DNA from: Lingula anatina
Taxonomy: Eukaryota > Animalia > Brachiopoda
Direction: 5' to 3'
DNA length: 64,000 nt
Assembly (NCBI GenBank): GCA_051362555.1
Contig: CM120645.1
Coordinates: 4,650,001 to 4,714,000 of the forward strand
The notes below the pieces were generated by a model. It did not search any database and had not been told where the DNA came from. It was given only the letters and a program-made list of their open reading frames with translations. Every line of letters starts with the position of its first letter. Position 1 is the stretch's first letter. Position numbers and translations under genes: made by a program. Shown one piece after another: positions 16,524-63,695 of the stretch.

Positions 16524-16575
<52 letters not shown>

Positions 16576-23100: not shown

Positions 23101-26100
23101 CCACCGAGGCCTTGAGGATGGTTCCTTTGTTCTGTCTCATGTCCTTTTCCCTGTAATGAAAATCACTATGAAAGATAAGGTAAAAGTTTTGGGTGGGAAG
23201 AAAGCCCTTTAAATGTTTAAATTTATTCAGAAACTTCTTGATGCAAAGGAACTGCTGGGACAAAAAGTAGGCTAGGATAGGCAGAAACAATTAAAACACT
23301 GAGTTATATTTCGTAAAATGCTTCCTGAACAAATTTTGAAGTTAGAAAAACTCTGGACTTTCTAGAAAACTAGGAAACATTTAAAAAGTCACTGCCCAAG
23401 TGCTTGATACTTACGGGTCACATCCCTTGGGTAGCAGAGTTCCTAGCTCCTTGATTCTATCATTAATGTTGAAGCGCCTCCTTCTTTCAACTGCAACAAG
23501 ACAATATGATAATTAATAACCTCTAAGAAACAATATTTTTAAGTAGAATTTTCTTTATTTCTTTTTCTAAAGTTATGTTGACCCACCTTCCTCTTTATAA
23601 AATATTCATGACATCAATGAGAATTTAAAAAGTATCCATAAGTCCTGTATCTTCTTTTCTAATCTTATCAGATTAATAATTGTCAAATCTGACCCAACTA
23701 AAAACACAGAGTACAACGTAGGTCAGTTTACTTACTGAGATTATGATTGTCTTTCTTCTGTCTTTCTTTGGCCCACATTCTGGCCTCATCCTCATTCAGA
23801 TAGCCTGGCGTCTCCTTCTTCACCAAGATGTCTGCCGGACAAGAGCTGGACGATTTTCCACGAGCTGTTGTGCCCGTGGCTCCATAATATTCATGTGTAT
23901 AGTTAAAGTGAGGTACCTGAAGAGAGTTGCATTTGTGATCAAAAAAATTTTTTTGTATATATTTAATTTTTAATTTATTCATTTTATTTATTTCTTCTGT
24001 GTAACTGGAAAGATCATTTCTATTTTGGTTAGAAAGGTCTGCTTGCTTGCTCTCTCTCTCTCTCTCAAAATTTTACCTAGGGGTTAGATTTCTATGACAT
24101 TTCTCATGTTCGGTCTTTGGGAAGAAAAAGGTCCACTGTTTCAGAAAAAGACCCACCTCCTCCTTGAAATTACTGGCAAGAGGCCAAGCATTATAACTGT
24201 TTACTCATAAAGGACAACTTACTGTTGAGGACATCTGAGTCAGTGTTGGCTCTATGAAGTTCAGGTCACTGTCCATGGAGGGGTCCACTGCCTCAAGGTT
24301 GAGAAAGTCACCCAAAATATCATCTGCCTGAAACACGAAAAATATAAAAATGTCTCAATATTTAGTATGGACTCCTATTTCTGCTCTCTTGTAAAAATAT
24401 AACCAAAGGCTGAAAACGTCATTTAAACAAAAATATATTTTTTACTATCTGTCATTTGTTTTACCATTAAGTGTGAAACTCAATTAAAAAAATCTAGCAA
24501 ATTTGGTTAAAACAAAAATATCTTTTGCCTGAGAGAGATCTGGTCCTTCTACGCATCATTTGTTCTATTCTAATCCTGTTTTGCAGTGCTCTGTTGTTAT
24601 TTGCCCTTTGATCAGTGCCTAATCAGTGTTCATATCTCACCTGTTATTATACAGGACACAGTAAGCACCCTGTTAACCCAGGTAAGTCCACCGTGTTATT
24701 TGTGTACTATATGGCTACTCCATTAGTAGAGAGGTCCACCCCAACGCTCCACCCCCCTCCTAGCTAAGGAAGCTCCACTGCTAATGGACCCTTCATTACA
24801 GACTATCAAAGCAAATTGACTTGCATCTCTTGTCATTAATTACAGTATACCTGACCATTTCAGGAAGCATGTATTGTGTACAGGAATCCTTTAAGTAGAG
24901 GTTTAAATGCTTAACGTCTGGGTGCACAGGCGCCCCTCCCTCCCCCTCTTCCTAAAGGCCCTCCTGCCTGGCTACTCCCTAGATAAGATCTGCTTAATGA
25001 ACCCACTATTGTCCAGACGGTATCTGAGTGGTTCATCTGGACATTGATAAGGTTAACTGTGCCCCATATTTCACTGGGCAGTTAACAATGGAAGACAACA
25101 GACTAGCCCCGAGGGGGGACCAATCAAGTTCACTTTTCAGAAGTCTTTGATTTTTTCTCACAGACTTATCACTTTTGTGCTACCTTGACAATTACAGGTA
25201 TTGTTTTCATCCTATATGTGTCTTCAATGCCAAGATCAAAGAAGTTGAAGGGAATTTCGAAAGAATAATTAATTCAACTTACTGGCTAGAACTGCCAATT
25301 AAAGATAGTTTGTGCTGTTATTTATTTACAATAGCAACTTTTGAGTGCTGCAAGCTCTTAAATGCCTTAATTGACAATAAAGATAAATATCTCAATCTCA
25401 TCTTTATGTTTCTCATCACTCTCCTTGTGAGCAAAGTGACATCAAATCAGATATCTTATGATAATCAGCGTTCAAATCTCTTGGATTAACACCAGTTATA
25501 TATGGCAACTACTCTACCTCAAATATAATACAATATCTATTTATTTGATGAATGCTTTTTCTTTTTCATACTGAACTGACCATTTTACAGACTTTCATTT
25601 TCTTTTGAGTACTTGCACAGCTTTCAAAGATTGACAAATAACTCAATAATATTATGACAACTGTCTCAACTTTTAAATGAGTACAACTAAGAACAAATGA
25701 TGCAAAAAGAGAAGAGTTTCTTCTGAAATAATTTCTCACCTCTGAGACACTGGTACAAGTGCTGCTGACACCTACTGACAAGGGGCTGTCAGGAGCCACT
25801 GGCATGCTGCTACTGTGGAGTTGGTGCCCCGTGTCGTAATGGTGGGTCATCGCAGGCATGGAGTGCGTGCCCAGGTCGTCCTTGGAGTGTGTGATGTAGC
25901 TCTGAATTTGGCGCTTTTGCGTCTGCTGCACATAGTATCTTGTGGGGTTCTCTAGTCTGGTTTTGACCTGCAATTAAAACAGAAATGGTTCATTTCATTT
26001 CCTCAAATTTCTTGTGAAGAATCAGCTTGGTATCTCTGAGACAATGATCCCAAACGCTGCTCCATTCTGCTGAAATAGAAAGACTCTAGTGAAAATAATA

Positions 26101-29100
26101 CTGATAAAAACTTCATGTAAGTCACATGAATGATTTTTCTCCCAAAAACCAATTAAGGTGAAACAGCAATGAAAACATCACAATATAACTGTGAAGTTTT
26201 TTGTCAAAAAGCTCTCAAGGGAAAAAAGTCCACAACTAGTTCAACTTATTTGTGAAGTACTTTGATAAAAGGAAAGCAACAAGAAACCATCATTGTGGGT
26301 CTTGCTGTTATCTATGTCCAGCTTTGAATGACCGTTGAGTTGATATTGACCGAAGAGTATATTTGGGCTATGGGAAAGGAAGTGGGGGTCATCTCTGTCC
26401 TCACATGCCAGCCTTTCAAGCTCAAACAAGGACACTTAAATTATAAATTTTAAAAAAATCCAATCAGTTACAATTATTTTCAGTGACAATCTGAACTCAA
26501 ATTTCTGCAAAAAAAAATCAATTTCACTTCAACAAAAACTTTTGAAGGGCATTCTCATTAATTTTTGAAAAAAAAAAGAGCGCTTAATTTTAAACACTAA
26601 CCTTTTAACAATGGCTAGTCAACCTTATTACCCTATATTAAAGTCCTTGCTCTGGTTCAATCCAACTGACAAATTGCTCCTAATAAGGGTCTTTCACCCA
26701 ACCTAGCATGTCATGACGGGTAAACAAAAATAACATTTGCCGAATCCCAAATTTACTTTAATCAAACCTGATGTGGATTTCTTCATAAAGAAAGTTCAGC
26801 ATGGATTGCGATGTTATGCTGTCAACAAGTTTTCATTTGTTTTTTACCCAGAAATGATTGGCATCTTTGCATGACAATGAACAGCCTAGCTTTGCACAAA
26901 CACGACCTACTCATACGTACAGATTGTTTTTGTTATGTTCATACATTCACCGATAATATATACTTATCAATGAATATATCTAATTATGGGAAAATTTATC
27001 TGATAACTATTGTTTCTGGTCCTAATGTTTCGTGTTGGATTTGAAAAACTGATGATAAAACTTTCCTGATTGGAAGATCAGACCTTTTACACAGGATCAT
27101 GAATCTGATGAGAAAACTGATCTGATTGGACAACAGTGAATGTTTAGAGTTCTATCATATCTACTGGTATCTAGGATATTAATATCAACAAATTTTACAG
27201 TAAATGGCCACTTTAAAAATATTTTGGAAAATATCACATGGCATGACCTTAAAAGTATTTAAAATTAATGGACCATTGAAATACTTTAATATGAATACAA
27301 TACACACTTAAAGACAAACCTACACATATTTTTGAAACTCTAGAATTTAATTCTAGAAAAGTTTTACACGATAAAAAGCTATGGTTTCTGCTGGAAATAA
27401 CTATATGGGATATACAAAAAAGAAAATTCATTTTTGTAACATTTTGTGACAAAGGGTTGCCTTTTTTCTGTCTTCCTATTGTGTTTCCGGGCAAATATGA
27501 CTTGATACCACAAATATAGCAGTCAGCATTAGATTCTGCATGAACAGTGGGAGAGTGCAAAGTCGAACTCTCTCTCAAGGTGAAAGCTCCTACAGAAGGG
27601 AAAACAATATGAACGCCTGTGAGGCCCTGGGATTTCATTAATATTGGTTACAAATACCAGGACACTTCAAAATATATATATCACTACTGCCATCTTGATT
27701 TTAATTCTTTGTAAGTGGGAATTTTTGAAGATCATTTTTCTCTTTTTTTCTCTCTCTTTTTTTCCTTTTTTTCTACAAAATTTACTTTGTAAATCACTTT
27801 TTGAAGCCAAGCCAAAAGACAAAGTTTTATCCTCTTTTTCAGGACGCAGAGAGTTTAATTTCAGTATTACATCTTTACTTCAACAATATTAAACAGAAAA
27901 TCCATTTCCAATCATTTTTTCCTGAAATCATTTTTTTCATCACCTAATTGGTTTACTTTTACTTAAAATAATAAAATAAAATCATCTTCTCTAACCTTGA
28001 GGAAATATTCTACAACCTCATTCCACACTTATTGAAACAAATACAACATCCTTCATAACTGGACACCCGTTCATATGAAACCTGTTCAAACATAACTTTT
28101 TTCTTACCTCATAATTATAACCATAGTACAAATAATCTCTGGGGTCTGCATACGGCGTGCAATATGTCTGCCTACAACTGTAATACTCAGCTCCGTATTC
28201 TGCACTCACAGGCATGCTGTTGTTGTGTTGGATGTTATTGACAGAAAGTTACAAACAAATATCACAAAATCTTGTACCACTTCAAAGGGGCCCGAATGAT
28301 AAATACACCATGGGAAGTCTGTAACCAATGTCACAAGGCCAGCTGCTCTGCTTTCTCTGAACAAGACCTGATATAGTGTCCACTTCCCTCTCTCACTAAG
28401 CCCTGACTGCCTGACTTCTAAAAGTGTGGCCAGCCTCACTTCTTATATCTCAGTATGCCCATTCAACCATTTTATGCAAATTTTGAGGCAGGCTAACAAT
28501 ATGTTTCTGCGCCATGGATGGTTGCTCACGGTTCAAGAATAGAGCTAGTTGGAGTAGTCAGTCCAGCAAATGGTTGTGGTCAGGGAGAGACTTCCATAAT
28601 TATGTCAAAGTTGTGTAACAGGAACCATTCATTAAGGACCTGAGGCCAGGAAGAGTTTATTGTATACCTGGTCACTTAATTCTGGGGATGAACTGCCGTT
28701 CAGAGTTCATTAAAGTTATTTAGTCCCTTTTCTCACCTACTCCTTCTTCCTCTGTGTGTCCTTTCCTTGTCATTTTGTTTTCCCCCCTTTTATTTTACTT
28801 TAGAGACATTCTTGTATTAACAATGACTTAATGAAATTCCACAAAGTCTAAAATCAATTTATTATCCAGCATGTAAAATACATTTATCTTATTTACTGAT
28901 TTAAAGATTTTTTGCCTGATCATTATCAAATATCTGCTAACCATCTTTTTGTCTCTGTAACAATATAATTCATCAAATTAAACAATTTTGTACTAAAAAA
29001 AGGACCCAATCGCGAAATAAATTTCTTCCCATCACTTTCAACAAATAAATCTTTTTCATTGAATAACACTTTTGCTGCCAATTTCCAGTTACACGGTGCA

Positions 29101-32100
29101 ACAAGCTGGCTTCGACTCAGAGGGTGGGAAAGTCTGTCAGCCAGAAGATGGGGACCCAGATAACTAATATCCACCATGTTATTTTACAAGACAGGCTTAT
29201 TGAAGGTTTCCTGTGATGTATGGTAGGCTCACTGCTGCAAGCAATGTTATGCAAGTTCTCAAGGTTTGCTTGCGTTGATTTATTTGGTTTCAGGTTTGAT
29301 AAGTCCAGTTGCAGGGGTTACTAATGGGAAGTGGACATGACATGGTTTTGAACTGTGGAATTTCATGTGTCATAACTTTCTGTCTTTTTTACTCATGTAT
29401 TTATTTTTTTTTAATTTCAAATTAAATTTTAATTGTAAAATTACTTATTTCAAATATAATATATGTCATTAAGCACCCCATAATTCTTATCCCCCAAATT
29501 CTTCTTTATTATTTCTGATCCAAGTATTTTTTCCTAGCCCCCTTCCCCTCACCATCTCTCCCCACCCAATATTAGTAAAAATACTTAAGTACCAGTATCA
29601 GTGAGCAACAAACTATCAGAAAATTCTGAAAATATGCAAGTTCTAATACTGTAAACCCACAATCCACTGATTTTGGTCCAACAGAAAAAGATTTTATCTG
29701 TAAACAGTTTGCAATATCAAACTGATAATCTTTTTTATCTAAATTGTTCAAATTTGTAGAACCAGACCAAAATTATAATCTTTAAAAGGCCTGCTTACAC
29801 CTTTCGTGCCATTATCAAGAGTTATCATGCATCTTCTTTATGTCTTAATTTAATCAATCCCGGCCTGCCTCACTTCTGACTTAGATACTCTAAAGCCCTA
29901 GTTAAACAAAGGTTTGAAATATGATAAATGTTTTTTTTTTCTATTTTCTCTATTTCCTTTTCTTTTTGTCCAAATATTTTATCACAATTATTATGAAAGA
30001 TTATCACTCTCAATTTTAAATTGGCAAGCCATATTTTTGTTTTTGTTTTTTCAAAACAATTACATCAAGTCTAAACCTGCTTTAACATCATCTGTAAACA
30101 ATTTTTTTTCTCTCCCTACTGATCTTTTGCCATTTTTTTCTGATCAACTGCCAAAGCTAACTTAGCAGGGGAAACTGGTGCAACAACGCACTACGACTGC
30201 GACAAAGAGGATGTTTTCTTTTTCTGTCCCTTGTACGATTGTGACACCAGCATCGCTGTGCCTTGAGCGCCAAAATAAGATATAATTTACATTTGACAGA
30301 ATCAGACAGCAAACTTTTATCAGATTAACGAGCAAACAATGCAAAACTGAAAAATATGTTGAAAACCCAGACTGTAAACAATGCATAACCTCCAGCAAAA
30401 CAAAAGTAAAAGTTTAAAATTAAAAGATACACAATCCTATGTATCATTTTCTTTTACTAAGAATTACTTTCCCTTTCCTTTTTCCTTTTTCTAAAATATA
30501 TCCAAAAGAGAAAGGTTCATTTGGCTCCAAATATCTTTACGTCAAAGCCGACAACAATAGTGGAAAAGCCTAACCACTATGATTACTTTTGCTGCCCAAG
30601 GGTTTGGTTTGGGGGCAAAAACTATAGCTGTAATCAAGACTGTTACTTCCTTAATGTCTGTTAACTGGGATACCAATATTTCAACATACTGCTATTATCA
30701 ATATTTTTATTTATATCTATTTATCTTATAATACTGTTTTCCAATCTACTATTTATTTATTTACATATTTCATTTTTGTCAAAGCTCTTGGGTACACTGA
30801 TTGTTAAAGGAACAGTGGCCAACATTTTGGCCTAAAATATCCCATGGATTTGACATTTAGATTGTGTGCTGGATGTTTTTTCCTTGATGCCCAAAGGACA
30901 CTTTACATTTTCCTTTACTAGAAGTCAAAGCAACATACCATAATACATTTCACTTAAAATTTTTAGAATTTCGATTGGTTCCAGTTAATTTTATTGCCAC
31001 AATGAGCCTATGAGCATTACTCTGATTTTATGAAGTTATTATTATTATTATTTTTTATCCCAACTAGGACATTTTCTGAAGAAGATATAGCCTATACTAT
31101 TGCTTGTGAAAACAATGAACAAATTTTAATAACCAATTTTTAAATGTTATTCAACCATTTTCAAGTAAAAGAAAGGAGCAGGCAAAAAAAAAAAAAAATT
31201 ACTAATTTTTTTTCAAAAAATAAAGAACCACAAAATACAATACCTGAACCTAAATATAACCATGCTCTTAATGTCTACACTCCTCATCATTAAACCCATC
31301 ACCCCCTAATCTTCATCCTTAAGGCTGTGCTAGTAATGAGCCCTTTAAGTTAACCGAGGAAGTAGCACACGGCTGTTGTTTTAACTCTCTAGGCAAGTTG
31401 CACTTGGACACTTCATATATTGTATAACACTAACTGTCAAACAACATTTCTACACACCATATCTATGGGAAATCTTTAAAGGTAATAAGTGTGAATTAAT
31501 TACTCCAAAAATTCTTAATTTTTATTACTTATTTAAAGATATTCCTAGGTCCATAAATCCGATTCTGAAAACATGTTAAGGGTTTAAAGTTTAAACCTTC
31601 TGAGAAAATGTGTTATGTGCAAAAGAAAAGTGCATAAGTTGTATAAGAGATAGTGGACAGTAACACAAATCTTAAGCTTTCATCATTTGGTTTTTTGCCT
31701 GTTCAAATATGTACAAACTGATGTGCTGGACATGCTTGTGCATTTTCAGATGGAATCTAATTTGTATGCAAGCTAGTACACATGTACTTCACACGTTTGT
31801 GCATATGCAGAGCAGAATTCCACATTTATGCTTGTTCAAATCTTTCCTTTTATGGATTTTGATAATATTTATATCCATGGATCATTCATCAATAAGCCGA
31901 AATTGCTTTTCACATTAAAACTGTTTGCCAGGTACCAAAACTTTCCACATTAGCACAATAATGCATTGGACTTCACACATCCAATCCATAAAACAAGTTT
32001 TATTTATCATTACAAAACAATAACGAATCACTTCATAACATACTTCGCACTACTTATCAATTCTGAAAAATTTACTAAAAACCGATGTTTTTTTTTTTCA

Positions 32101-35100
32101 AGGTACCACCTGTTTGATTTTTACCTGCAAAACCTGTGGAGGGACCTCTGTGGTTGTGCTACCAGAGTCAGGCATGTTAATGGCGGACGACTGCTCGGAC
32201 CTTGACGGCAACGACTGTGAATATTGCAGCTCCTTGCGATCGAGATCTTGAAGTTGTTGCTTCATGATTAGCTGCTTCATGTTGGCTCGTGTGCTGACGT
32301 GGGCATTTTTAACCTCTGTCGGTGGACTGAAATGAGAAAGAAAGTGAACATCACTAGAAAAGTGCATCTTTCAGAAAAGTGTTAAGAACTTGAAGTACAT
32401 TCATTAAGGCAATAAGGGGTAGTCTGAACAGCCTAAGTTCTTTTTGTTTGTTTTTCCTTGCTTTTTTCCCTTTTTTTCTTTTTTTTTTTTTTTTTTTTTT
32501 GGGGGGGGGGGGGTTAGAAAAACCTGTAAATAGCCATTTTCCTGAAGTCTTATGAATGTTTAACAACCTTTCTTTATCTCACTGCCTACATTTGCCTTTG
32601 TTTCAATCAAGCATTGTTATTAAAATATCCCAAATTTTTTATTTCAGGTTTTTGACTTACATTTTGAGCAAACTCTGGTTTTTGTGGGGTTGGGTGGGTG
32701 AGTGGGTACTAGAGGAGAAATGATGTACCTTGCTTTCCTCATGAATATCCCAAACTGTGATTTAACACTATTCAATTAAATCATCTGTGCAAAATGTGGT
32801 GCAGGTGGTAAAAGGGGCAGAAAGAACAAATCTACCAACTGTTGATTCCTAATTCCCCGATTCCTGCCTGTTGCTACCTGAATGAACCAAAACAGGTGGG
32901 AATACTTGGTCACAGTCTGCTGCCATCAGCTGGCATTTCATACAACAAACACCAAACTTTTATCTCTTTTCCTTCTTGTTCCTATATTTCCATATCAGCA
33001 CCATATTGTCACACTAACACATAATGTTCCACTCTGTCTCTACAGACTTGTTTACTATTTATTTTTCTGTTGGTTTCAAAATTAACAAATACACCTCATT
33101 GACCGACAATTATTACCTAGCTGTATTTTCACCTTCTTTCTGTGCTACCAAACCAAAAGCAAAGATAAATAATAAGAAGATCCTGTGTCAAATGAAACTG
33201 TGCTATTGCTATTGCTATGTACTATTGTTTAAGTTCGTCTTTGTTAATAATGGATAAAACAGAAACCCTCTACTTTTCTTCTTATTTTAAGTTTTATTGG
33301 AAAGCAAACAAAGGTTTCTTTTTCATTCAGTATCATCAAAAACAATGAATAGCATGATAATACTGAGTTGCACCAAATTGAGAATGGTAGTGTTTACAGG
33401 CTTAATTTGGACTAATCTTTGTCTCTTTAAGAGATATGACTACATTTCGAACAGACAAACACTCTGAGCTTGAAGTACTTTCCACATCACACACCAAACT
33501 TTCTTCAGGGGTTTAAACCCAACATGTTATAAATGTACAGTAAAATGTACTAAAAAATAGTCAAGTTTTTGTCCCTGTTATTAAACCTTCTATCATGCGC
33601 TGATGAGTAAATCTTGTTTTTTACAAAACACTCCTTTTTGGAGGCCTACCTGTATTTTATGCAAATTGATATCAAAATTGACCTGTGCAATGCTACATGG
33701 GGAGCAAAGTCCACATTGTGAAAGGGGATGTGAAGAAAAAAGTTGGTCACAATGAGAAGAAATTATAGTTGTAGGTATGACACATCAGATATGTAAACAG
33801 CTGTACCAGATCAGAAAAAAATCGACACTTAATGTTAAATTAAAATATTCTTTTGCAATAAAATATGAAAAGGCAACACACATTCCATATGCTCTCTCCA
33901 AATAGGGCATTTCAAGCATGTATTTCAAATATAGTTCTTGTAAATATATCTTATTGTCCTTTATACCTTTATCAGGATTCTAACAATTTTAAGCATTACA
34001 ACAGTAACATTCAACTTTTAGGACATATAAATGCCACTACTACTGTTGTTAACAAACTCAGCAAGTTTGTAATTTTTTTAAATTGATACACAGCAAGACA
34101 TTTCAGATGAGAACAGTGTCCAATAAGAGTATTCAATGAAAAATAATTTAAAATTTATCACTTTTACTCCATATTAAGTCAATTCAAGTAAAACCTGATA
34201 TCTGCAGGGAGGAAATTAAGTTGCAGATTAAATGCATGAAAAGGAAGCAGATATTGCATTAAACTTCCTTCACAGGTTTAAACAATGACACTACAAAATT
34301 ACTATCACAAATCCCAGACACTTCCTCCAAGTGGACGGTGTTAGTTTCTGGGATTGTTGAGCCATTCAATATCCTTTTTGGTATTCCAATTTCAACCACT
34401 TCAACAGTGATCCGTGATGGGGACAAAAAAAAAAAAAAAAAAAAGATGACACAAACCAAGTTACATATAACTTGCTCTTCATCATATCCTCATCAGAAGC
34501 ATGATCATTAAAACAATTCGGTCCAATTATAAACTGGTTCAGATAAAGCAACTCACAACCCTTTATAAAAATTCAGCCAAAACCCTAACCACAAAGCAAA
34601 CCACACAGAGAAACCATGTTTCTTTTACTAACAAACAGCTGATAAAAGTCTAATCTAATCAAGAAAAGAATTAAATTAATTAATCTTTTGGCCTTAGTAC
34701 TATATACGTTTGCGGTTTTGTGCACTACCTGTATCCTTCTTGCAACAAATACTGTCTCCCACATTCAGCATAGCACCTGGCATTGTAATAACGACTGTAA
34801 TATTCACTGTAACTATAGCCGTAATGTTCACACGGCCCCTGCTGATAGTGACAGTAGTCAATCATTCTCACTGAGTTGGGCTGCCTGCAGCTTTCAAAAA
34901 TTGTTGCAAATGCCTTGATTTTAGTTTGTTAAGCTGCAGAATAATGTTTCTGTCCTGATAACTTTTTGTAAGTTATTTCCACAACTATTTTCACTCAAGA
35001 GATACTTCTCAACTATTCTTCTGTCTTGTGTTTGTTAGTTACTGGCACCAGTGCTCTCTCTCCACCATGAAATCACCAAATTTTTTCCTTATGATTTGTT

Positions 35101-38100
35101 GCATTTCTAAGATCCAAGTAAAATGCCTTTGTTCTCCAGAAAACTTGCAGTCAATATGACAAAAATGCAAGGACAATACTAAAGCTCTTTCTCTTTGAGT
35201 ATTGTGACCATGCCGTAGGAGGAAGTGTGTTTTATTGGAAGCAGAGTTTATATTGTAATTTTGACCCCTGGAAGGACGCCCACTTCTTGCCGAAAGAGGT
35301 GATGTCATCGTTGTACCTTCACTTTTGCCAAGCACCTAAATCACCTCCATCCGTTAAAAATGCAGTTGAAAGTTATACCACATGTTAGAATGAAAACATT
35401 TAGGCACACTTAAAGCCATACTAATTTGTTTTTCATTTTAAGACATATTTTTGATCATTTTTAAAGGACTTTATCAAGTTTCTCTTTTAGAACATTATTT
35501 TCATTTGATTGACACATCCTGTTGACCTAGTTTTCCATATATGTCAACCCCCATTTAACAACCAATAAGGCAGCCCAATCAAAACATATGAACCTCCCCT
35601 ACATCACCATATTTGGGTCATTGATACCATATTTGGAATCCAGCGTGCTGATGGATAAAAGATCAAATCAAGCAATTCTTTGGAGTTGTATGAACTTTTT
35701 GCACATGTATTTTTCTTAAATAGTATTCTCTAAGAGTCAGTGCACAATGCAAGGCTGAATCAATAAAGATAAGGGTAAGTTTTGCTCTCTGACAGAGATG
35801 TATAAATTTAGATGTTCACGACAGCGACAGTTGCTCCGCTGACTAACACTGACCCAGTGTAACTGAGCAGTTTGCTAGAAAGAAAAGTGAGAACTCCAAG
35901 CGATTGCCTGCTAAGCACTAAGAACTATGAACCTGCTTTCCCTTTCTTTTCTTTTCAAATACACTTATTAAAAACCTTCATACAAGGCCTAGAAAAAACT
36001 CTATTGTGCAAACACTATGAACCTGTTTTTGTTTTTTTTTTTCTTTCAGTTTAGCTTATTAAAAAGTTTCATAGCAGCATTAATAAAAAAACCCAAAAAT
36101 TAAAAAAAAAAAAGCAAAAAAGAGAAAAATTGTTCCATTTATCATCTGAGCAATTTTACAGGGGCACCTGCAATATCCAAGGTCATTAGTACTTTTAATT
36201 GGCAAACAATGCTTTTGTGGCCAAAATTTCACTGAACCCTTCCAGGGAGCTTCTGAACCTGGGCATTACAATATCAAATGAGCATGCCTACATGACTTTC
36301 TGTTGAATTCAATGTTCCACTCTGGCAAACAATTCTGCCCATGCAAACTCACTGCTATGGCTGCACAGCCCTCACCTTGCGGCAACGTTGCGAAAACGTG
36401 CAGCTGCCACAAAGGCCAGACTGCGAGATTGAACGACAATGCAATCAAATGTACTGAAGTTGTTTCATGCAATTTGCAAATGGTCCACTGCACAATTTAA
36501 GGACAAATATGTCGATTCATGAAAAGAAATTACCCAGAAAAATACGTATTGCCAGTGCTTGATTCCGATAAAAATGCAGTCACTTATTCATAAACAAAGT
36601 TCTTTTCATATCTCAAAACCCAGTAAGCCCACCCACCCCTAAAATTTTTGTAACAAAAAAAATTTAAAGACTTTAAGGGTTTAAATTACATTAACTTCTA
36701 TCAAAACGAAACCAAATATGAAAATAGCAGAGTCATCACTTTCGTAGCAAAAACCCCCTCCCACACAAGTTTTTTATGCCTACTGACACATTCTGAGTTC
36801 ACTTAGGCAAAACCACAGTAATGTTTAAAACAACAGACACGGGCTACCACCAATTTGACCAAAGTCTTCTTGATTACACTTCTGATAAGTCATGCTTAGG
36901 AGCATAACTTGAAACATCCCTTAGATGTAGCCATGTCAGGCTCCATTTACGTAACAAGATTAGAAATTACCAGAGGTAGAAGAGGTTGGCAGATGCCACT
37001 GGGCTTTAGACGAAATTCTGTGTTGGTTAAGCACACAATTAGGACCTGCAGCTAGTTTTCTTTGTTGTTCATCATTTCATCCATTTTTTTTCACAATTGT
37101 AATTGCAATATTCAGCAGACAGAAATAATTAAGGGATTGGACTCTCATGAGTTTTTTCAAGATGAATGTGTCAAAATGGTAGTAAAAGTCAGAATACGAT
37201 TGACTCTAATTAAAAACAAGGACAAGCGAAGCAGTTCAGTGATGGACTACTTCAAACAAAAGCAAATGATGCCACAAAAAAGAACTACATCTTAACCAAA
37301 TAGCCATACGGTAATAAAATGATAAAAGAAAGAGAGGCATTACCCTTTCCCCCCCAAGGCTAACACAATAAATGCTAAATTTCAAAGAACTTTTTTTACA
37401 ATTAATAGAAGGTGATTTTGTCTGTAATCCTTCAAGTCCCGACAAACTTTTTTTATCAAAGGTTGTATTTTTCTAACCTTTCATGGCCATATAACTGTAC
37501 CGAATGCTTATATATCATAAATTTGTCCTTATCATCAGATTTACAAATTGCTTTACAAATACAATGGTAATCCTTCTCTGACTGACAAGTATTGCCATTT
37601 TTTTCTTTTTAGATGCAATTGAAGTTCTACAAATTATGTGGTTGACATTATAAAAGGCAAGCTACTCAAAAGGAAATTGCTAGGAAAAGAAATCTCCCAA
37701 AGAAATATCAAGTTAAAAATGAATTTTTGTTGTTGTTGTTTTAGAAAAAAACTAAACTTGATAAACTAAGAGTGATCTATTCTTTGTGTTTAATCTGTAC
37801 TTTTCTATTGAAGAAAAAAAATTCATTTTTATATACTTACTTCATTCCGTACTTTTGAACCATTTTCCGGAAATTAAGATCTCACAGGCAAATACATAAA
37901 TATCTATACTGCGAAAATGCGTCCCCTACGTGAACTTTTCTGCTACAGCTATATTCTGAATCATCACATCAAATTCTCCAGATTTGTAATTTCCAATGTC
38001 AATCCTTTCAGCATGTTATTAATTCTAGATTAAATATTTCGGCACAGTCATGGAGAATAGCATCCAGGGCCTCCAAAGTATGCTATTATTTTCCCAGCAA

Positions 38101-41100
38101 AGTTTATATATATATTGCATGGCTCAAAAATCTGCAATGAGTAATTATGCTGGTAGATGAATTAGTCATCTATAAATTCAGAAAAAAATTGACCTGTTGA
38201 AAAAAAATACACTTTGTAGAGAGATGGGACTCCAATCAGGGCATAAATTCAATTCAAACTATTTCACAGACAGACTCGTGCTTATTTGGATGTGGTATTT
38301 TCAGGGCAAGTGACAGGGAGTGGGGCACACAGATTGTGTTCCTGTCTCAACTGGCACAATCTGGGGCTTAAGAGCTCCACACTACTGCAGTCTTGATTTC
38401 TTAAGCTCCTGTGCAATAGATGTTATCCAACCTTGCTTCAATTTAAAAAATAACCATATACTCCTTACTGCGTCAGGCATGCACACATACTTTTCAACAG
38501 ATTTTGTTTTCTTTTTAAAAAGAAATAAAAATTCTCTCTTGCTAAAAGTTTTAGTTTATAATATAAACAAGTAGACAAGTTTCTTACAACTATATGGGTG
38601 GCGAGGCCATACTAGTAGCACTGATGAAAATATTCAACAGTAAATTATCAGTACATGCCTTTTATCTTCTATAAATAACTATGCACGATGCAGTTAATTG
38701 ACTGATATGGTACAGATGGTTTATAATAATATATAACTTATGTGAATTCATTCTCACATGATGATCCCATGTGTCCCCATCTGTCATGGGACACACTACA
38801 CCAACACCCATTGATCATCTACTATAAAACCAATCAAAATTCTGAACCTTTAATTAATAAAATCTATAAACAGATTACCTGTCATTATAAGAAGAAGAAG
38901 ACAGTAATGTGCTCTTGCACTGCATGCACCCTTGGTGTACGTGCTTCCGCTCGTGCCCTTGCGATGTACAAGCAGGGCAATCATTATGCACATGCACCAA
39001 GCGCCTTGTGCTCAGATCGTAATACGTGAGTATCATACTAGGATAAGAGTCTGCACCCGTCCCTACACTCCCCTGGTCTGGTCCGTCCAGCTGTTGGAGA
39101 GATGGGTAATAAGTGTACCCTCCGCCTGGACTTTGTCGGCACAAATACGTCTGACAATACAAACATTGGCACCCACTCACAGAAGAAGCCTCCATTGATA
39201 TATTAGCTAATGAAATCTTTTATCACTTGGGATCAAACCCATACGCCACTATTCTGTCTCCTTATCTTCATCCAATATTGTGCTTGTAAGCTGCCATTGT
39301 GCCATCCAACTGTTATCCTTGTATTGAATGATAAGCAATGACACACAACACTCTATATATATGTAACTGTTTTGTCAATTAAGGCCAGCTTCATTAAAAA
39401 TGAATGTGTTCATTTAGCAGGTTTCATGACATATATTTGTTGGAAAAGCTCTCCATGATTTTCTATGCATAGATTAGGTGAAATAAACTATCTACTTTGT
39501 ACTGTTCTTTCTTAAAATTTAATTCATTATCCTATTCATCATCATTATAATTTCAATATACAATGAGAAACCTTGTTCTTAGGTTCCATTTGTTGAAACA
39601 AAAACAATCTTTCACTATTTTATCTTCAACTTACCACTTAACATTATTAATTTTCATACAGTTTTTGAGTTTCACAAGTATGACATAAAATGTAATTTAG
39701 GCTTCAGAACTTCTGTGCCTATATATCATTAGTTCAGTCTCAATTTGTGATACAACTGTCTCATTATCTCCTCTAACCCAAGGGAGACAAGCGCACGTGT
39801 GAGTGCAGATTAACGGAGGGGTACAGCTTTTGTGAGTGATGGGGACGTCTCCGTTTCACTCTTCATATAGTAAAAGTGCAAAATTCATATTAATCAAAGG
39901 CTACTGCCAAAATTTCATTGCCATGGGAAATTGTCTGGTTGTATTTATCACCTCATGACGAGATCTAGTAAAGATTGGCCACAAGGTATCTTGTGAAGGG
40001 GGTAATGTCAGGCAAAAGATGACAAGAAAAGGCTGAAATCTGTGATTGATCATGTTGCCAAAACCCTCAAAATTATTCTCTGCAAGCCCAAAACACCCCC
40101 CTCTTACCAAAAAAGATTATGTTCTGAATATTGTTAAAATATCATCAAAATGCAAATGACTAACTAAAACACAATCAAGCTAATTGCTTTTTCCATACAC
40201 ATAAATTACCATCTCATTATAACATAGGAAATGTGTTTGGGTGTACGTATCTCACTCCCCCCCCCCCCCAAAAAAAAAAAATCTTGATTCTGAAAAATGC
40301 CCTCTTTTATCAGTTCTCTAAACTAATCACTAATCATTATTCTAGACCATTGCCATCAGATAGTATTTTACCTAATATCAAAAATATAAATCTTTGTCTT
40401 AATGCCAACTAAAATATTTGATTATTCTGAGCCAATTAATTTGATGAAAAGGAGATGTTTGGCTTCTTACAATAAAAAACTGTTCTACAGCCTTGACCCT
40501 GAATGTACAAATTGTTAAAATGTTAGTTTGATTAAATGGAGATTTCAACATTACTGAGTCATAAGATTTACTGGTACTAATTTTCCAAATATAGAGCCCA
40601 TTTTAAAGATACAGAGCAAGTGTTCTATAGAATGACTCAAGGAGCGATACAGCAAATTTTTTCATGTAAAATATCTAAAAATTTTCTCATATGAGTAAAT
40701 GTTAAGAAGTTCTTTGATTAAACTTTTCACTTCTGTTTACCATACTCCTACAGTATGCTTTCTTCAAAATTTCCTGCAACATTTTGGTCAACATTTTGCT
40801 TCCCGTTTAATCTATAGAGAGTCTGTTTTTTTTTCTTTTGTTTGCTTTATAACTACTGTGACATACTTTCCTCCATTCCAAAATTGTGTTAATAGGTAAT
40901 TTTAACTATTTGTTCCAAATATATTTTAGTCAGTCAAACAAGTACCATTCATGTGAACAGTTACATACTGTAGATTATCTATGCACCCACAAACAAACAC
41001 TGCGACAATGACATGCCTGAAGATCACGAATGGCAAGTACAAAATGCTACTTTCTTTTTCAAGCTTTCAAAACAACCTTTTACCACTTTCGTGGAAAACA

Positions 41101-42649: not shown

Positions 42650-44590
42650 TATGAAATCCTAACATATAAACAAAAATTCAACAAGAGGCATAACTGTCTC
42701 CCTCTCTCTTCCCTTTCATTGGAGATTAAAGCAATAATAACTCTTTGTTTCGGCCAAAAAATTAATTTTCCTGGAGTAAACAACAATTTTCCCATACTTA
42801 CCAATGGTTAATGAATCCATTTTTACATTCAAAGTTAGTCCCTGGTTTTTTTCTAAAAAGTTTGGTTTTTTGTTAAAATCTCTTAAGAGATTTTAACAGA
42901 GTATAGACATCAATGGAGGTCACGTGGTCTAAAGACAAGTTCAGATATCAGAATAAAAGCTATAACTGCTGTTTTTGTGGTAAAACAGAATATATTATAT
43001 TTCTATGAGTTATTCACAAGGATTTTATTGTGAAATATAGATCTCATACGAAGAGTTATTATCCCTTTAACCACTTGACTGTACAATTTAAATTACCCTT
43101 TTTTGGCAATTGTCTCCCAATTTTTACTTAATAATAAACAATATGGTGTATTCCTACTTACTCCACAATGGTCATTTTTCAATACACTTCCTCTGTTCCA
43201 TATGGAACATCCCAGGTTTAAAACCCATTGAATCTCCCTTTTCTACCTGTAATTCTATTTCAGATTTGCCTGTTCTCAGATATATGTACAGAAACTATAC
43301 ATTCTGCCTGGTGCACCTACCTTTAGCTACTGGTTCTTTTCAAATACCTATATTCTCACCTGTGTCCACACTACTGAGTGATTTTCTATAGTAACAGCAC
43401 ACGACAGGACAGGACAGCTGGTACACACATATAATAACAAGTCTGGGTTCAAATAAGTAAACAGTGACAAAATATAATTATTGTTGTGACACCTGCACAT
43501 CTTCAGTCACTCTATTGTATTCTATTGTTATTACTGTATTTAATTATTGTTATTATTATTTGTTTAAATAGATGGTGTCAGTTGTGTTTTCTCGGCATGT
43601 ATTCAAATTGACAACTTTCTTTCAACAGTATTGTTTTTTCTTTGTGACTAGTGGCTCATATTATAAGGGTTATTTCATCAATATTTCTACCTATTCATTG
43701 CTTTTATCAATTTTCCCTATATAAATTTCTATATACTTACATTATTTTCTATTACAATTTTGCATTACAAGACTTTTTGGAACATATAGTTATTATTTTA
43801 TCACATGCAATATATTAACTTATCACCAATGCCTATTAAAAAAGCAAATAACGCAAACAACAATAAGTTTTATCTTGCTTCAGTTCAAAAGTTTACACCC
43901 AGACAAACAAACACATCCATTATCAGCCTCGCTGTATGGGTATATGTTATAAGGGTGATGAACCCTCACAGGAGATTACAGGACAGTAGTCTGTACCATT
44001 TATTATCTTATCTAATCCAAGTTATCTGGATTCAAGCCAATGATGCCCATGTCAACAAAGAGCAAATCAAATGCCCTGGATAACTCTGATAAAGAGAGGC
44101 TCCAACATACTTAATAATACAATTTATTGCTTGTTATTTCATTTCAATATCTAGGACAATAACAAGTAGAAGGGTTCAACTGAAGTGTTAGATTTATTGT
44201 TTGTTACATAAGTATTTGTATTTAATAACATATATCTCAGATAAGAACATTGCAGCTTGAATGTTTTTAATTCACTAATCCGTTATCATATTTAATGCTC
44301 CTACAATGAAATGCTAACGTTTTCAACTAGACTGCTATAAGAATATTTTAACTTTAAGAATACATTTGTCTAATTGTCAAAAGTGTATATTCAGTGTACA
44401 ACTGAAAGTATTCCACGATTCGTCATTTGTTGGTTATGTACCTTTTTATTTGACTTCTGAATTTCTCTTTTTCTAATATGGCTCCTTTGTAGTATCACAG
44501 CAGAATGAAATTTTACTCATGGCCATATTTTCCCCCTTTGTTATAAATCTCCAGTTAATGCCAAATGTTGGACATATATACCTACACCTG

Positions 44591-44668
<78 letters not shown>

Positions 44669-46388
44669 GGGGCATTTTAGGCTATTGGCCAGGCATGATG
44701 AGAAAAAAACTTGATTTTCTAGTTTTGTTATGTTCTGTTTTTGTTCCAACTTGCTACGCCAATTTTCTGGAAGGCAGCCAGCATTTTACAGTTGGAGAAT
44801 GCATAATTTCTATTAGAATTTCCGAATTTAGAGATAATTTTGCACCGGAGCTAGAAAATCTGGGGTATTATCTCAGACATGTACGCAGCAGTGGAAAAGA
44901 CAGTTATTTATTTCCCCAATATCACACCCCTTCACCTTCATGGCACAGAGCTTAGACCAAAACTTGACTCAGAATGGACTCCAGCCAAATGGACAGTTCA
45001 TTCACCCACTGCCCCCTCCCTCCCCCCCTCCACCTAATACCCTGTATCTATGTCTAGACTCTGGAATTACTTTGTGGACAGTGGAGGTAATATTTCATGA
45101 TCTCTCACATGCTGTACCCCCTAGAGGAGGATACATTGCTTAGCCATACTTTGACATTTTGACACCCTCAGTTTTCTTATATATAATCCCTTAGTGAACT
45201 ACTGCAATGCAGGCTACAAGCTATTATTCAATTTCTACAAATCACGGACCAGATCATGATACAGAAACATCCTGTAACTTATAAACTGCCTCTTTGACAA
45301 TAAGTCTTTCGTCACTTTATCAGTAGTTATATTACAACAGAATGCAAAAAATCCAAACCAGAAATGTATTTCTTATCAACTGTCCTGCATTAAACATTAT
45401 AAACAACTCACCATCTATTACTCTTCACATGCATCTTAGAATGAACCATCCTCTTCAGACCCCAGTATATATTTGCTTTTACTGTCTTAAATTAACCTAG
45501 ACCAGAAACATATAGGCACCAGTGCCATGTAGAGCTGCTAAATGTATAGTTAGAGCATTGGTTTAACAGTAACCAAAGATAGAAGTGGAAGGGGGGAGTT
45601 TCCCCCTGATAACGATGTTATTAATTAGGTTAGGGGGAGGGGCAACGCATTCGTGTTGCACCGTGGTACCATAACCTTAGCACACATTAACGAGCTGACT
45701 TTAAACAAGCAAGATAAAGGTGTAGTTACAGCTACTGTATTAACAAATAACCGGCCAGTGTTTTTCCATTATTTACAAAGTATGAGATAACGATACATGG
45801 TCCAGCGTGAGCGTCCACATGGGTCCAGTTGGCCACACGTGCGCCTGAACGAGACCTGGAGGTCTTTGAACTAGGTGCGCCTAACGCAAATACACCAGGT
45901 CAACGTTTACCCATGTTGTCAGTAACTGTTAACTGTATTAAGGTTCACTATAATATCAATGTTATCACCTTATTACGACAACCACGGCTTTGACGCCCCC
46001 CTTCAAGGACTGTTGACGCTGGCTCCGTCTCAGCCTCTGCGTAAAAACTTTTCCAACCATTTTCACAGAACTTGTCACCACAAACTGGAAAAGGTGCTTC
46101 TCCTAGACTCGCTTTTCTTTATAAAGCCTTAGATAAGTTGACCCAAAGACTTAGCCATCTTACCTAACACGACCCATTGGGTCGAAAACGACACCATTTT
46201 GTAAGAACTCGGAAGTAGGTCAGAGCTCTCGATACGAAATCAACAAAAATCTTGTCGACATACCTGGATACGACGGGGACAGAACTTTTCAGCTCATAGA
46301 AACTACCGGTAAGGAAATCGTCTTTCTCTTGATCCATCAGGCTGCTGAAGTCAATACCAGAATCGTACTCAAGACTGGGCTCATTCAT
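20168..46388 (-). CDS. MITF: MiT/TFE-family bHLH-leucine zipper transcription factor (MITF/TFE3/TFEB orthologue); 8 coding exons, about 455 aa
   Basis: Exons (minus): 46388-46264, 32326-32125, 25967-25740, 24327-24223, 23916-23736, 23490-23415, 23150-22997, 20464-20168. All introns are GT-AG with consistent phases (1368 nt). Diagnostic motifs: [97 protein letters not shown]. Confidence 0.96.
28108..28215 (-). CDS. MITF: Candidate alternative first coding exon of MITF (36 aa, phase 0, MITF-M-like position)
   Basis: ATG at 28215, [36 protein letters not shown], then strong donor GAG|GTAAGA. In frame with the VKTRLENPT exon (acceptor 25967). Confidence 0.55.
38879..39195 (-). CDS. MITF: Candidate alternative first coding exon of MITF (105 aa, Cys/His-rich, phase 2)
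   Basis: 317-nt open frame from ATG, GC-richer than the surrounding intron. It ends at donor CAG|GTAATC in phase 2, the phase needed by the exon-2 acceptor at 32326. TATATATA lies about 160 nt upstream. Confidence 0.55.
42612..42646. repeat. (CA)n microsatellite
   Basis: Directly visible. Confidence 0.95.
42730..43066. mobile_element. Kolobok-like MITE (about 337 bp), copy 1, in MITF intron 1
   Basis: TTAA flanks (42726-42729, 43067-43070), TIR AG(C/G)(A/G)ATAATAACTCTT...AAGAGTTATTATCCCT, and a near-identical second copy at 62181-62516. Confidence 0.88.
44597..44662. repeat. (TA)n microsatellite
   Basis: Directly visible. Confidence 0.95.
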
Positions 46389-46459: not shown

Positions 46460-46552
46460 GGGGACTCCCCCATTCAATGACGTCATTATACAGGTGTCTT
46501 TATTTCTATTGGTTGATCTTGTCACGTGATACCCATTCACAGTTTTCATTGG
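46460..46552 (-). promoter_or_regulatory. MITF main promoter: kB-like site, CRE, two CCAAT boxes flanking a CLEAR/E-box
   Basis: GGGGACTCCCC 46460-46470; TGACGTCA 46478-46485; CCAAT (minus) 46508-46512 and 46548-46552; GTCACGTGAT 46521-46530. All lie 70-165 nt upstream of the ATG. Confidence 0.7.
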
Positions 46553-51155: not shown

Positions 51156-54100
51156 CCGGGACTTCCATTCCTAGGACTACCATTCCTGTCACACCTACCC
51201 TACTATCTGAATATGATCGAGTTTGTTCCTTCATTGGTCATATTCGAGTGCTATCACTACGGTTACTATCACAACCTGGAGAAATACATGCATCACGGTG
51301 CAAGCACGGCTGTGGCAGTTCAAGGGCATTCCATATTGTTCTCCTCTCTAAAATACACTTTCCTCCATTTCATGCCTTTTGCTACTTCTTTCCTTACCAC
51401 TTCAGCTGATGAGGGGCAATAAAATGCGCAATTGCTTATTTTCGTTTACTTTTGAATTGGTAATTACGAGGTGAAAGAGGTTCGCAAAGTGGAAAAGAGG
51501 TTTTGAGTGGGCAGAAGTGTAAAATGTCAATAACCAATTTTTTTCTTAAACAAATTACAAGTTATGTGATCCTCTACATAGGATCCTATATCTTACCTGT
51601 AAAGATCCAAGAAAAAAGTCAACAATTTACCCAATATTGGAGTGGAGGAACAAGTCATATTTTATTAAAAGAAAAGTCGGTTGTAAGACATAGTGTCTGC
51701 AGTGCCTTTTTGGTGCAATTTAACAATTACTCACCTTTTTTCGCTCTCCGAGTCGTCTCGGTCGCTGTCACTACTACTTGGCATGCTGTCATTCTCTTTT
51801 TCTGAGGGTGTCTTCTCTTGAGGTTTGAGGAGACTCCTCAATAATACATGATTTCCTTTGGTCACAACTATAACAGTTTTCGAACGCGACGAAGGCCCTC
51901 GGTGACTCTTCGGACTCTTATCGATTCCGGGCATTTTTGAGGTAATATAATTATTATTCTCCCTGCAAGTCTGCAGCAGTTTTCTAGTCCTGTCTGATAT
52001 GATACTCCGAGAGGGTCGGAGATACTGTTCCAATAGGGATCTGGGCGCCTGCCCCGTAGTTTTCATTGAGAGACAGTTTGCGGTGCCCTAACAGGACTTG
52101 AGAGTAACGGTGGTGGATGGGAAACGGAAGACCGGTGCTCACAACCTAGGCAGCTAGTGTTCATCCAACGTTGTCCTACACGGGCGAGAATCCCTTCATC
52201 ATTCTCGTAACTGAGATAAATGATAGCGCGACGTTTGCCTCGGTACGTCACGGTTGACAGTCCGCTGTCGTCGCATGCAGTCCCACAAATCGTAGCAGAC
52301 CAAATCAACTGTGTAGCCCTCACCTGAGCACTACTATCTCGATTTACTACTCGAATGACCTATCTTGAAGCAGTCTGGGTTGCTAGCATAGGCTGATATT
52401 ATAGATACACCAGTCACCGTATAAATAATAAGCGGAGTCTGTATTAATAAATGAGAAAAAATTCCCTCAAGTATATATTGCACTGGAAGACACTGCAACC
52501 CGGAGAAAACCGGCAGCGCCACGCCAGTTGCACTGAAATTGAATGGGTCGGTCCTGAGGGTCGAGGTTCTGGGCTTATCAGATAGGGATATCCGAGAGCA
52601 GATTGATTATTAACAATAATATCAGTATGCGTGCAAGCACAGCACGCTTCGGTACCGCTATGAAGAGTTTATTACGAGCAAGAACAAGAATACTGGAAAC
52701 TCTACCTGTAATTATGGCACCTTTATTGTGTAGTTTGCATAACACAGTTGTACTGTACCTCATTGTGCAATGGCATAAAGCACCTGCTGCTGTCCGAAAT
52801 ATATTGGGATTTTCACTCTTTGCCCTGTCAAAATTCTTTCACCTCGTCAAGGTTTTAATTTGAGACTCACTCGCAGAAAGGCAGTTACATAATATACCAG
52901 CTGAGAGGCGCAGTTGTCTTTCCTTTTTTCTTCTGGACAAACGTTGAAAAAAAGCCGTGTGTGTAAGAAAAACATTTATGTCAATAACTGTTGGTCTGAC
53001 ACTTATGATGAAAAAAAGTTTTGAAACCCTCTATGAGTCAAAATGGATAAGGCTTGCGGTTCTAACTGAAATTGTTATCGACTATTGGTGATTATTGGTT
53101 CATTGTTTTTAAGCAGTCTCGTTCCCTATAAATATCTTATTGCAGACGAGTTTATTTTACAAATTGTACGTATTATATACCTCAGCTAATCGCATTGAAC
53201 AGTGCAGGAACTAAAATCGTGATTTGTTTGGCATTGTATTTTATTGATAAACACTACTGTCACCCAACTATTATTATAAACCTTGGGTCTATGCAAGATT
53301 ATTGGCATGCTTGCTTAGGGGAAAATACGCACACACAAGAAAAAAAAACGTGACTGTATGATTTTAACTGGGCGACTGTTTTAACGACCCTTGCGTGACT
53401 CTTGGGACATTACTTTCAAGGTCACGTTAACAATTTTAAACAGCATGATTTACAGAGGAACAAGCCGCTTTTACAGTTAATCTGGAGAGTCATGCTCGTG
53501 ATGGATTTTGTAACATTTTTCGTTGAGGACGAAACTGGTCAGGAATGTATTGAAGGAGGGTTGAGGAGATGGTACCACTTCTTGAGAGCGGTCGTTGAGC
53601 TCTTTGAGGACATGTTCTTAAAGTTACCATGAACTTCGAATTCATTATTGACATTTTATGTAATCCAAAAATTAGGGAACATTTGTAAATTATTGCTTAG
53701 TAAATTAAAAATGGACAACTTTGTGCCATCCCAGAAAAGATCTTGTGATAGTGGCCTCTGTTCTCAAGGTATGAGTCCAGGGTTTTTGACTTAAAACTAC
53801 AACTCCTTCTTTTATCTGTTTTAAAAAGTTAAAGAAATGGAAACTAGACTTTGGTCTTCGAGGGAATCCGAATGCGATCAAAATGTGTTGCTAATCAATA
53901 TTCCCCAACATCATTTAACCTACGTTTCCTTTGTTAGCAATGCGTCGTGGCATTTCATCACAGCAGTTTTATTACCTTACTTTGAGCGAGGAGTGAATGA
54001 CCGGGTACGTTCAGTAATGTTATATCACAAAATAGAAAACCCATCGGGTCACCGACACTCATTCCCCTTTTGAAGAAGGGCGGTGGGACTATAGATTGTA

Positions 54101-56388: not shown

Positions 56389-63695
<7,307 letters not shown>

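What the first reader, a model, noticed from the sequence alone, without database searches (positions are those of the whole stretch)
38879..39362. Second hidden MITF first exon encoding a Cys/His-rich N-terminal domain
Seen: a 105-codon frame in an otherwise AT-rich 14-kb intron ends exactly at a CAG|GTAAT donor in phase 2, the same phase as the canonical exon 1. It has 8 Cys (CxCxxC, CPAC, CMQC) and 5 His (two HVH), with a TATATATA box about 160 nt upstream. Established: canonical exon 1 carries a DSGIDFS/FYELKS segment like the beta-TrCP phosphodegron region of MITF-A/TFE3. Inference: this isoform would keep the Rag-binding exon 2 but replace the degron with a possible metal- or redox-sensitive module that I do not recognise in MiT/TFE proteins.
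Basis: partly seen in the sequence, partly recalled or inferred. Interest (0 to 1): 0.75.

Follow-up and report, generated by a model that had tools for sequence, protein, structure and literature searches.

The report
Rare extra first exon, brachiopod MITF
The MITF gene of the lamp shell Lingula, already annotated with six alternative first exons, carries a likely seventh, rarely used one that would make a protein lacking the degradation tag; its cysteine-rich tip has no relative found and metal binding is untested.

Summary
The sequence claims hold: ATG 39195 to a phase-2 CAG|GTAATC donor at 38879 (105 codons, 8 Cys, 5 His), TATATATA 159 nt upstream. The gene is Lingula anatina MITF/TFEC. 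Its seven RefSeq isoforms use six first exons; this one is not among them. For a real exon: such a frame arose in 1-4 of 400 intron shuffles, it is the intron's GC peak, and about four RNA fragments from 8 runs all lie between the TATA and the donor. Against: none of 241 listed exon-2 junction reads comes from it, though only about one was expected at this depth. Four upstream ATGs and a weak start context precede it, and no relative turned up among 189 MiT proteins, Pfam or PDB. Cys and His counts are unremarkable for this DNA; only the CxxC-x13-CxxC spacing is unusual (0.5-1.6%). Losing the degron is not special: five annotated first exons also lack it, as does human TFE3-S. Verdict: probably a real, minor (under about 1-2%) promoter isoform of a known kind. 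The metal-sensor idea is possible but unsupported (about 13%).

The parts
38879..39195 (-). Candidate first-exon coding frame: 105 codons + 2 nt, ATG 39195 (weak context, T at -3), phase-2 donor after 38879
39196..39330 (-). Inferred 5' leader (start about 30 nt after the TATA, not mapped) with four upstream ATGs at 39305, 39297 (in frame, strong context, stops after 9 codons), 39271 and 39242
   Evidence: inferred fragment ends reach at most 39323
39354..39361 (-). TATATATA, possible TATA box; the motif is common in this intron
39139..39171 (-). Codons for CxCxxCxxxxC (residues 9-19)
38917..38979 (-). Codons for CxxC-x13-CxxC with three His inside (residues 73-93)
32125..32326 (-). Shared MITF exon 2 (acceptor 32326, phase 2), TFEB-N-terminus-like helix (Pfam PF15951 start); also encodes DSGSTTT
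46264..46388 (-). Degron-type first exon (RefSeq isoform X4), DSGIDFS...FYELKS; dominant in the runs laid
51735..52066 (-). First exon of RefSeq isoforms X1/X2 (110 codons)
45412..45449 (-). First coding exon of RefSeq isoform X5 (12 codons; one residue differs from the record)
37841..37863 (-). First coding exon of RefSeq isoform X6 (7 codons); junction to 32326 seen in 7 reads
34729..34865 (-). Tyr/Cys-rich first exon of RefSeq isoform X3 (45 codons); junction seen in 35 reads; 8 of 11 listed differences synonymous
28108..28215 (-). Tyr/Cys-rich first exon of RefSeq isoform X7 (36 codons, phase 0), joins exon 3 and skips exon 2, MITF-M-like architecture

Best explanation
This is likely a seventh, rarely used alternative first exon of the Lingula MITF gene, which would splice to the shared exon 2 and give a transcription factor lacking the N-terminal degradation motif. 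Shown: the open frame, the in-phase donor, six other annotated first exons, and sparse RNA confined to the exon. Inferred steps: (1) a weak promoter near the TATA at 39361 starts a transcript at about 39330 in a few cells or stages; (2) the 38879 donor joins the 32326 acceptor; (3) the product keeps the exon-2 helix, the S211/C212-equivalent site and the bHLH-zipper, so it would still be held by Rag/mTORC1/14-3-3 but escape exon-encoded beta-TrCP turnover, like TFE3-S; (4) four upstream ATGs and a weak start make its output low. The Cys-rich 105 residues are read as a lineage-specific, probably poorly folded tail akin to the Tyr/Cys-rich tails of isoforms X3 and X7, not as a dedicated metal sensor.
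For: Frame length at an in-phase donor in 1-4 of 400 shuffles. GC and CpG peak matching the frame (GC 0.50 vs 0.35; CpG O/E 0.61 vs 0.30). The locus already uses six first exons, five in the same phase. About four fragments, inferred from binned depth in runs X2, X7 and X8 (two), all lie within 38891-39323 with nearly empty flanks; the one from a stranded library (run X2) is sense. P of 4 or more wholly inside from intron background is 0.0003-0.013. One fragment in run X8 has 246 of 300 nt laid and ends 12 nt from the donor, compatible with a clipped junction read. DSGxx(x)S occurs only in the isoform-X4 exon. Degron-less promoter isoforms are established for TFE3 (PMC12852735, passages), and alternative N-termini for MITF (PMC3575543, passages).
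Against: 0 of 241 listed exon-2 junction reads come from 38879 (199 degron exon, 35 isoform X3, 7 isoform X6); the tool lists a joint only at 3 or more reads in a run. The fragment count alone is not above background (P 0.16-0.47 for 4 or more overlapping). If spliced, most fragments touching the exon should cross the junction; 3 or more of 4 inside has P 0.04-0.24, and 4 of 4 has P 0.003-0.04. The short X8 fragment also fits a 123-nt insert. Not among RefSeq X1-X7 (7 of 8 cluster members read), and the unspliced 106-aa product is not in the protein collection. In-frame codon usage is not coding-like (score -5.5; isoforms X3 and X7 also score negative, so the test is weak). Divergent reads may map better on a GC-rich patch than on AT-rich flanks, which could mimic confinement.
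Confidence: 0.5

Rival explanations
1. Chance intronic frame: a GC-rich patch of intron 1 happens to be open and to end at a GT, and the few reads are unspliced pre-mRNA.
For: No listed junction in 8 runs; depth per bin within the range of other intron bins (2.77 vs up to 3.13); not annotated; no relative; TATAWAW common; a genome-wide scan picks rare frames, so a 1% event per intron is not remarkable.
Against: All four inferred fragments respect both predicted exon ends; GC peak, frame and donor coincide; only about 1 junction read was expected, so the blank has little power.
Confidence: 0.25
2. One reading: the exon is translated from ATG 39195 and selected because CxxC-x13-CxxC (plus CxCxxC and His) binds Zn or Cu or forms disulfides, making this MITF isoform metal- or redox-responsive.
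For: Two CxxC 8-22 residues apart arose in about 0.5% of 3000 null frames, 322 of 20000 residue shuffles and 0 of 76 real non-coding frames; three CxxC in 174 of 20000 shuffles. No CxxC in the first 200 residues of 189 relatives. The sibling Tyr/Cys-rich exon of isoform X3 shows purifying selection (8 of 11 listed differences synonymous vs 16% of possible changes).
Against: The pattern was chosen after seeing it. Cys and His counts are ordinary. No Pfam, NCBIfam or PDB match. pLDDT 44, no residue at 70 or above, from a single sequence. Weak start behind four upstream ATGs. About 0.5% of exon-2 transcripts at most as estimated. The core already has the C212-equivalent redox cysteine.
Confidence: 0.13
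3. The patch is a decayed fragment of a transposon or of another gene, with or without weak promoter activity; its GC content and Cys spacing are inherited from that source.
For: Sharp GC/CpG island in AT-rich intron; absent from all 189 relatives; genome-wide copy number could not be tested.
Against: No second copy in the window; no read pile with loose ends on both sides, unlike the repeat-like spot at 34063-34098; no Pfam or protein hit.
Confidence: 0.12

Closest known systems
Human TFE3-S (alternative start, no phosphodegron; PMC12852735, passages read)
   Same: A downstream promoter removes the N-terminal beta-TrCP degron while the Rag-binding and 14-3-3 regions are kept.
   Different: TFE3-S simply lacks 105 residues and is abundant; this exon would add 105 new residues and is very rare.
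Vertebrate MITF promoter isoforms A, H, B, C etc. versus MITF-M (PMC3575543, PMC9363479, passages read)
   Same: Many first exons splice to a common exon carrying the TFEB-like Rag helix; one isoform skips it (Lingula X7 does likewise).
   Different: No Cys-rich N-terminus among the vertebrate or invertebrate proteins retrieved (0 of 189 with CxxC in the first 200 residues).
Lingula RefSeq isoforms X3 and X7 (XP_023933072.1, XP_023933076.1)
   Same: Same gene; lineage-specific Tyr/Cys-rich first exons without relatives elsewhere; no DSGxx(x)S motif.
   Different: They are annotated, and X3 is spliced in reads and constrained. The candidate is longer, His-containing, about 3% of X3's depth, and not significantly similar to either (p 0.98 and 0.11).
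C4 zinc sites with C-x2-C-x13-C-x2-C spacing, e.g. first nuclear-receptor finger (spacing recalled, from no call)
   Same: Identical cysteine spacing at residues 73-93.
   Different: No Pfam family matched at E up to 1, no PDB match, no second finger, no confident fold.

Membership tests
MiT/TFE (MITF/TFEB/TFE3/TFEC) host gene | bHLH-zipper plus MITF_TFEB_C_3_N region | tested here: met
   PF15951 on exons 2 and 3, PF00010; last exon 99% identical to Lingula XP_023933071.1; TFEB chain at E 5.8e-55
MiT/TFE alternative first exon | Open frame from ATG to a donor in phase with the common exon | tested here: met
MiT/TFE alternative first exon | Spliced to the common exon in RNA | tested here: inconclusive
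   0 of 241 listed junction reads in 8 runs; about 1.1 expected
MiT/TFE alternative first exon | Own transcription start | tested here: inconclusive
   Inferred fragment ends at or below 39323 fit a start near 39330; no cap data
MiT/TFE alternative first exon | Frame conserved under purifying selection | not testable with these tools
   Too few reads for variants on this exon; no named brachiopod other than Lingula among the 19 clusters looked up
Degron-less, Rag-regulated isoform (TFE3-S type) | No DSGxx(x)S-type degron in the first exon | tested here: met
   No [DE]SG-x2-3-[ST] in the candidate; present in the isoform-X4 exon; exon 2 carries DSGSTTT of unknown role (consensus from PMC13201563)
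Degron-less, Rag-regulated isoform (TFE3-S type) | Rag-binding residues S3/R4 and Q10/L11 of TFEB kept | tested here: inconclusive
   Exon 2 aligns with T-R and L-I at these places: only R is identical (residues from PMC3575543)
Known zinc-finger or metallothionein families | Profile match to a curated family | tested here: not met
   0 Pfam families at E up to 1, 0 NCBIfam, best PDB E 0.55 to an unrelated chemoreceptor
Known zinc-finger or metallothionein families | Metal binding or a folded C4 site | not testable with these tools
   Single-sequence model uninformative, pLDDT 44
Dispersed repeat or transposon | Multiple genomic copies | tested here: inconclusive
   Single in the 64-kb window; no whole genome held

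The most novel reading that the evidence does not exclude
Lingulid brachiopods evolved a translated MITF isoform whose first exon swaps the mTORC1/beta-TrCP degron for a zinc- or copper-binding CxxC-x13-CxxC module, coupling lysosome/pigment gene control directly to metal or thiol state, a module seen in none of 189 other MiT/TFE proteins compared.
Probability: 0.13. Interest if true: 0.65.

Novelty: new member of a known kind. Interest (0 to 1): 0.3.

Why it matters
If real, it adds a seventh first exon to an invertebrate MITF that already mirrors the vertebrate many-promoter design: a degron exon, degron-less exons, and an exon that skips the Rag helix. That fits isoform-level control of MiT/TFE stability being old, but this exon is a minor, probably lineage-specific addition. 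It would matter to specialists only if the cysteine cluster proved conserved and metal-binding, giving a direct metal input to the TFEB/MITF family. The better supported by-product is that the neighbouring Tyr/Cys-rich exon of isoform X3 is spliced and looks constrained at protein level, with no relative found.

Tried and rejected
No whole genome held, so no genome-wide repeat test. No RNA holder listed in the run index; nine raw-read runs were offered by species label and 8 of 9 were laid, reading about 6% (five runs) or 25-30% (three runs) of each. Word-index protein search with the 105-mer: 0 of 21 candidates scored. This is weak, because the same search missed the real isoform-X4 exon (0 of 4 candidates) as only cluster representatives are searched. 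The Atlas gave no answer for the candidate and no usable hit for the X3 N-terminus. Rfam: one sub-threshold snoRNA match (20.6 bits vs 55), rejected. Codon-usage test uninformative: real exons X3 and X7 also score negative. Duplication from the X7 or X3 exon is not supported (p 0.11 and 0.98), although the candidate and X7 align from their first Met. Fold search and complex prediction were not run because the model is low-confidence. Earlier scan notes: nothing in three look-ups. Literature listings showed no title or abstract on Lingula MITF isoforms or a metal-binding MiT N-terminus; this covers the open-access library only. Nardone et al. 2023 was not held and is cited only through PMC12852735. 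No supplements were read.

Full report
Observation. On the minus strand an ATG at 39195 opens 105 codons plus 2 nt that end at 38879, before GTAATC. The donor is phase 2 and fits the exon-2 acceptor at 32326. The peptide has 8 Cys and 5 His, and TATATATA lies at 39361-39354. Among ATG-to-donor phase-2 frames of 8 codons or more in the 13,937-nt intron (8 found at donor score 5 or more) it is by far the longest. Dinucleotide shuffles, global or local, gave an equally long frame in 1-4 of 400 trials in each of six settings. The frame coincides with the GC maximum of the intron (0.50 vs 0.35) and has CpG O/E 0.61 vs 0.30. The TATA is weak evidence: 43 TATAWAW in the intron.

The gene. The last exon is 99% identical to Lingula anatina 'transcription factor EC isoform X2'; Lingula has one MITF gene (PMC5381572, table passage). 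Seven of eight cluster members were read; they are RefSeq isoforms X1-X7. They map to six first exons: 52066 (X1/X2), 46388 (X4, degron type), 45449 (X5), 37863 (X6), 34865 (X3) and 28215 (X7, which joins exon 3). The candidate is not among them; the eighth member was not read.

RNA. Eight of nine offered runs were laid on 32000-40000. Reads joining exon 2 upstream: 199 loose ends whose consensus is the degron exon (matched; a few may come from other upstream exons), 35 joints from 34729 and 7 from 37841; none from 38879. Joints are listed only at 3 or more reads in a run, and the tool dropped one joint row at skipped repeats. The exon itself has depth in 3 of 8 runs. From bin depths I infer four fragments (run X7 one, run X8 two, run X2 one), bounded by 38891 and 39323, that is between the donor and a start about 30 nt after the TATA, with almost nothing in the flanking bins. 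The run-X2 fragment is sense. Against intron background, four fragments wholly inside have P 0.0003-0.013 (three: 0.004-0.062), but four merely overlapping have P 0.16-0.47. Summed depth is 3.1% of the isoform-X3 exon, predicting about 1.1 junction reads in total and a share near 0.45%; the 95% upper bound from 0-1 of 241 is 1.2-2.0%. Against the spliced model, most exon-touching fragments should cross the junction; 3 or more of 4 inside has P 0.04-0.24. One X8 fragment has only 246 of 300 nt laid and stops 12 nt short of the donor. It may be a clipped junction read or a 123-nt insert. The RNA therefore leans towards a rare exon but does not show splicing.

Translation. Four ATGs precede 39195, one in frame with a strong context that stops after 9 codons. 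The main ATG has T at -3, whereas five of six annotated starts have A; Met54 has A. Output of the full 105-mer would likely be low (inference).

The peptide. No match in Pfam, NCBIfam or PDB (best E 0.55); word-index search negative but weak. Against 189 non-Lingula MiT proteins (149 representatives plus 40 cluster members, including named mollusc, annelid, priapulid, hemichordate and echinoderm records) the best E was 1.7. The degron exon hit 13 of 189 at E up to 0.01, and the X1 exon's best hit was a Patella isoform at 0.017. None of the 189 has CxxC in its first 200 residues; 64 have [DE]SG[IVA]. Cys and His counts are ordinary for stop-free frames of this composition (P 0.07-0.11 and 0.22-0.63; 7 of 76 real non-coding frames are as Cys-rich). 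The arrangement is less ordinary: CxxC-x8-22-CxxC in about 0.5% of 3000 null frames and 322 of 20000 residue shuffles, a pattern chosen after the fact. AlphaFold2 without an alignment gave mean pLDDT 44, which says nothing either way.

Mechanism. DSGIDFS in the isoform-X4 exon fits the canonical DpSGxx(x)pS beta-TrCP degron (PMC13201563, passage) and aligns with the ESGI...YELKS segment of MITF-A-like and TFE3-like proteins. TFE3 S47 phosphorylation drives CUL1-beta-TrCP turnover, and the alternative-start TFE3-S lacks it while keeping Rag and 14-3-3 control (PMC12852735, passages). The candidate lacks the motif, but so do isoforms X1, X2, X3, X5, X6 and X7 in their first exons. Exon 2 aligns with the TFEB first 30 residues that bind Rags (PMC3575543, passages), keeping R4 but reading T, L, I at S3, Q10, L11, so Rag binding is likely, not shown. 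The core has SSSSCPAD, matching TFEB S211/C212; C212 is the known redox switch (PMC9562866, passage), so redox sensing needs no new exon. Best reading: a weak extra promoter giving a degron-less, Rag-regulated MITF with a lineage-specific tail (0.5). Rivals: chance intronic frame (0.25), selected metal-binding module (0.13), relic of a repeat or another gene (0.12).

Context for the tail. Isoforms X3 and X7 also have Tyr/Cys-rich first exons with no relatives. For X3, 8 of the 11 read differences shown in the coding part are synonymous, against 65 of 405 possible changes; the tool withheld 32 and 28 less-supported rows, so this count is partial. Such tails can therefore be real and constrained in this gene, which raises the odds for the candidate, but similarity between them is not significant.

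Novelty. Unannotated in the RefSeq isoforms read and not seen in the paper listings (open-access library; listings only). As a kind, alternative first exons of MiT/TFE genes are well known (PMC9363479, passages). Interest 0.3.

Noticed in passing
window 34729-34865 (-): Tyr/Cys-rich first exon of isoform X3 (12 Tyr, 4 Cys in 45 aa): spliced in 35 reads, about 15% of listed exon-2 junctions, 8 of 11 listed differences synonymous, no relative in 189 MiT proteins.
   Followed up: partly
window 28108-28215 (-): Isoform X7 first exon (10 Tyr, 2 Cys in 36 aa) joins exon 3 and skips the Rag helix, the same architecture as vertebrate MITF-M; outside the stretch laid with reads.
   Followed up: no
window 51735-52066 (-): Isoform X1/X2 N-terminus shares a 'TVIVV..K...H.LL.SLLK' segment by eye with long isoforms of Patella, Mya, Pomacea, Potamilus and Bradybaena (best phmmer E 0.017): a possibly conserved lophotrochozoan first exon.
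   Followed up: partly
window 46519-46532 (-): TCACGTGA palindrome (CLEAR-like; consensus recalled) about 140 nt upstream of the degron exon's ATG, suggesting autoregulation.
   Followed up: no
window 32125-32326 (-): Exon 2 encodes DSGSTTT, a second DSG-type motif present in all exon-2 isoforms; not conserved in the nine aligned relatives.
   Followed up: partly
window 32000-40000, runs X7-X9: These runs differ from the window at many sites (about a third of reads only 90-95% alike), with length differences near 34901 and 35036: a divergent population or cryptic lineage under the same species label.
   Followed up: no
window 34063-34098: Short spot with 7-11 reads and loose ends on both sides in run X6: likely a fragment of an expressed repeat.
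   Followed up: no
window 6583-8882 and 59133-59975: Two arrays of a related 141-146-nt satellite.
   Followed up: no
window 42714-43070 and 62165-62520: Two 90%-identical copies of a roughly 360-nt dispersed repeat.
   Followed up: no
window 12934-17607 (+) and 56389-63708 (-): Neighbouring genes: a long coiled-coil gene converging on MITF (recalled as CEP83-like, untested) and MCM3AP/GANP exons upstream (weak PF16769 hits).
   Followed up: no
window 23149-23164 (-): Alternative acceptor adds five residues (DFHYR) in the bHLH loop in all read isoforms except X2.
   Followed up: no
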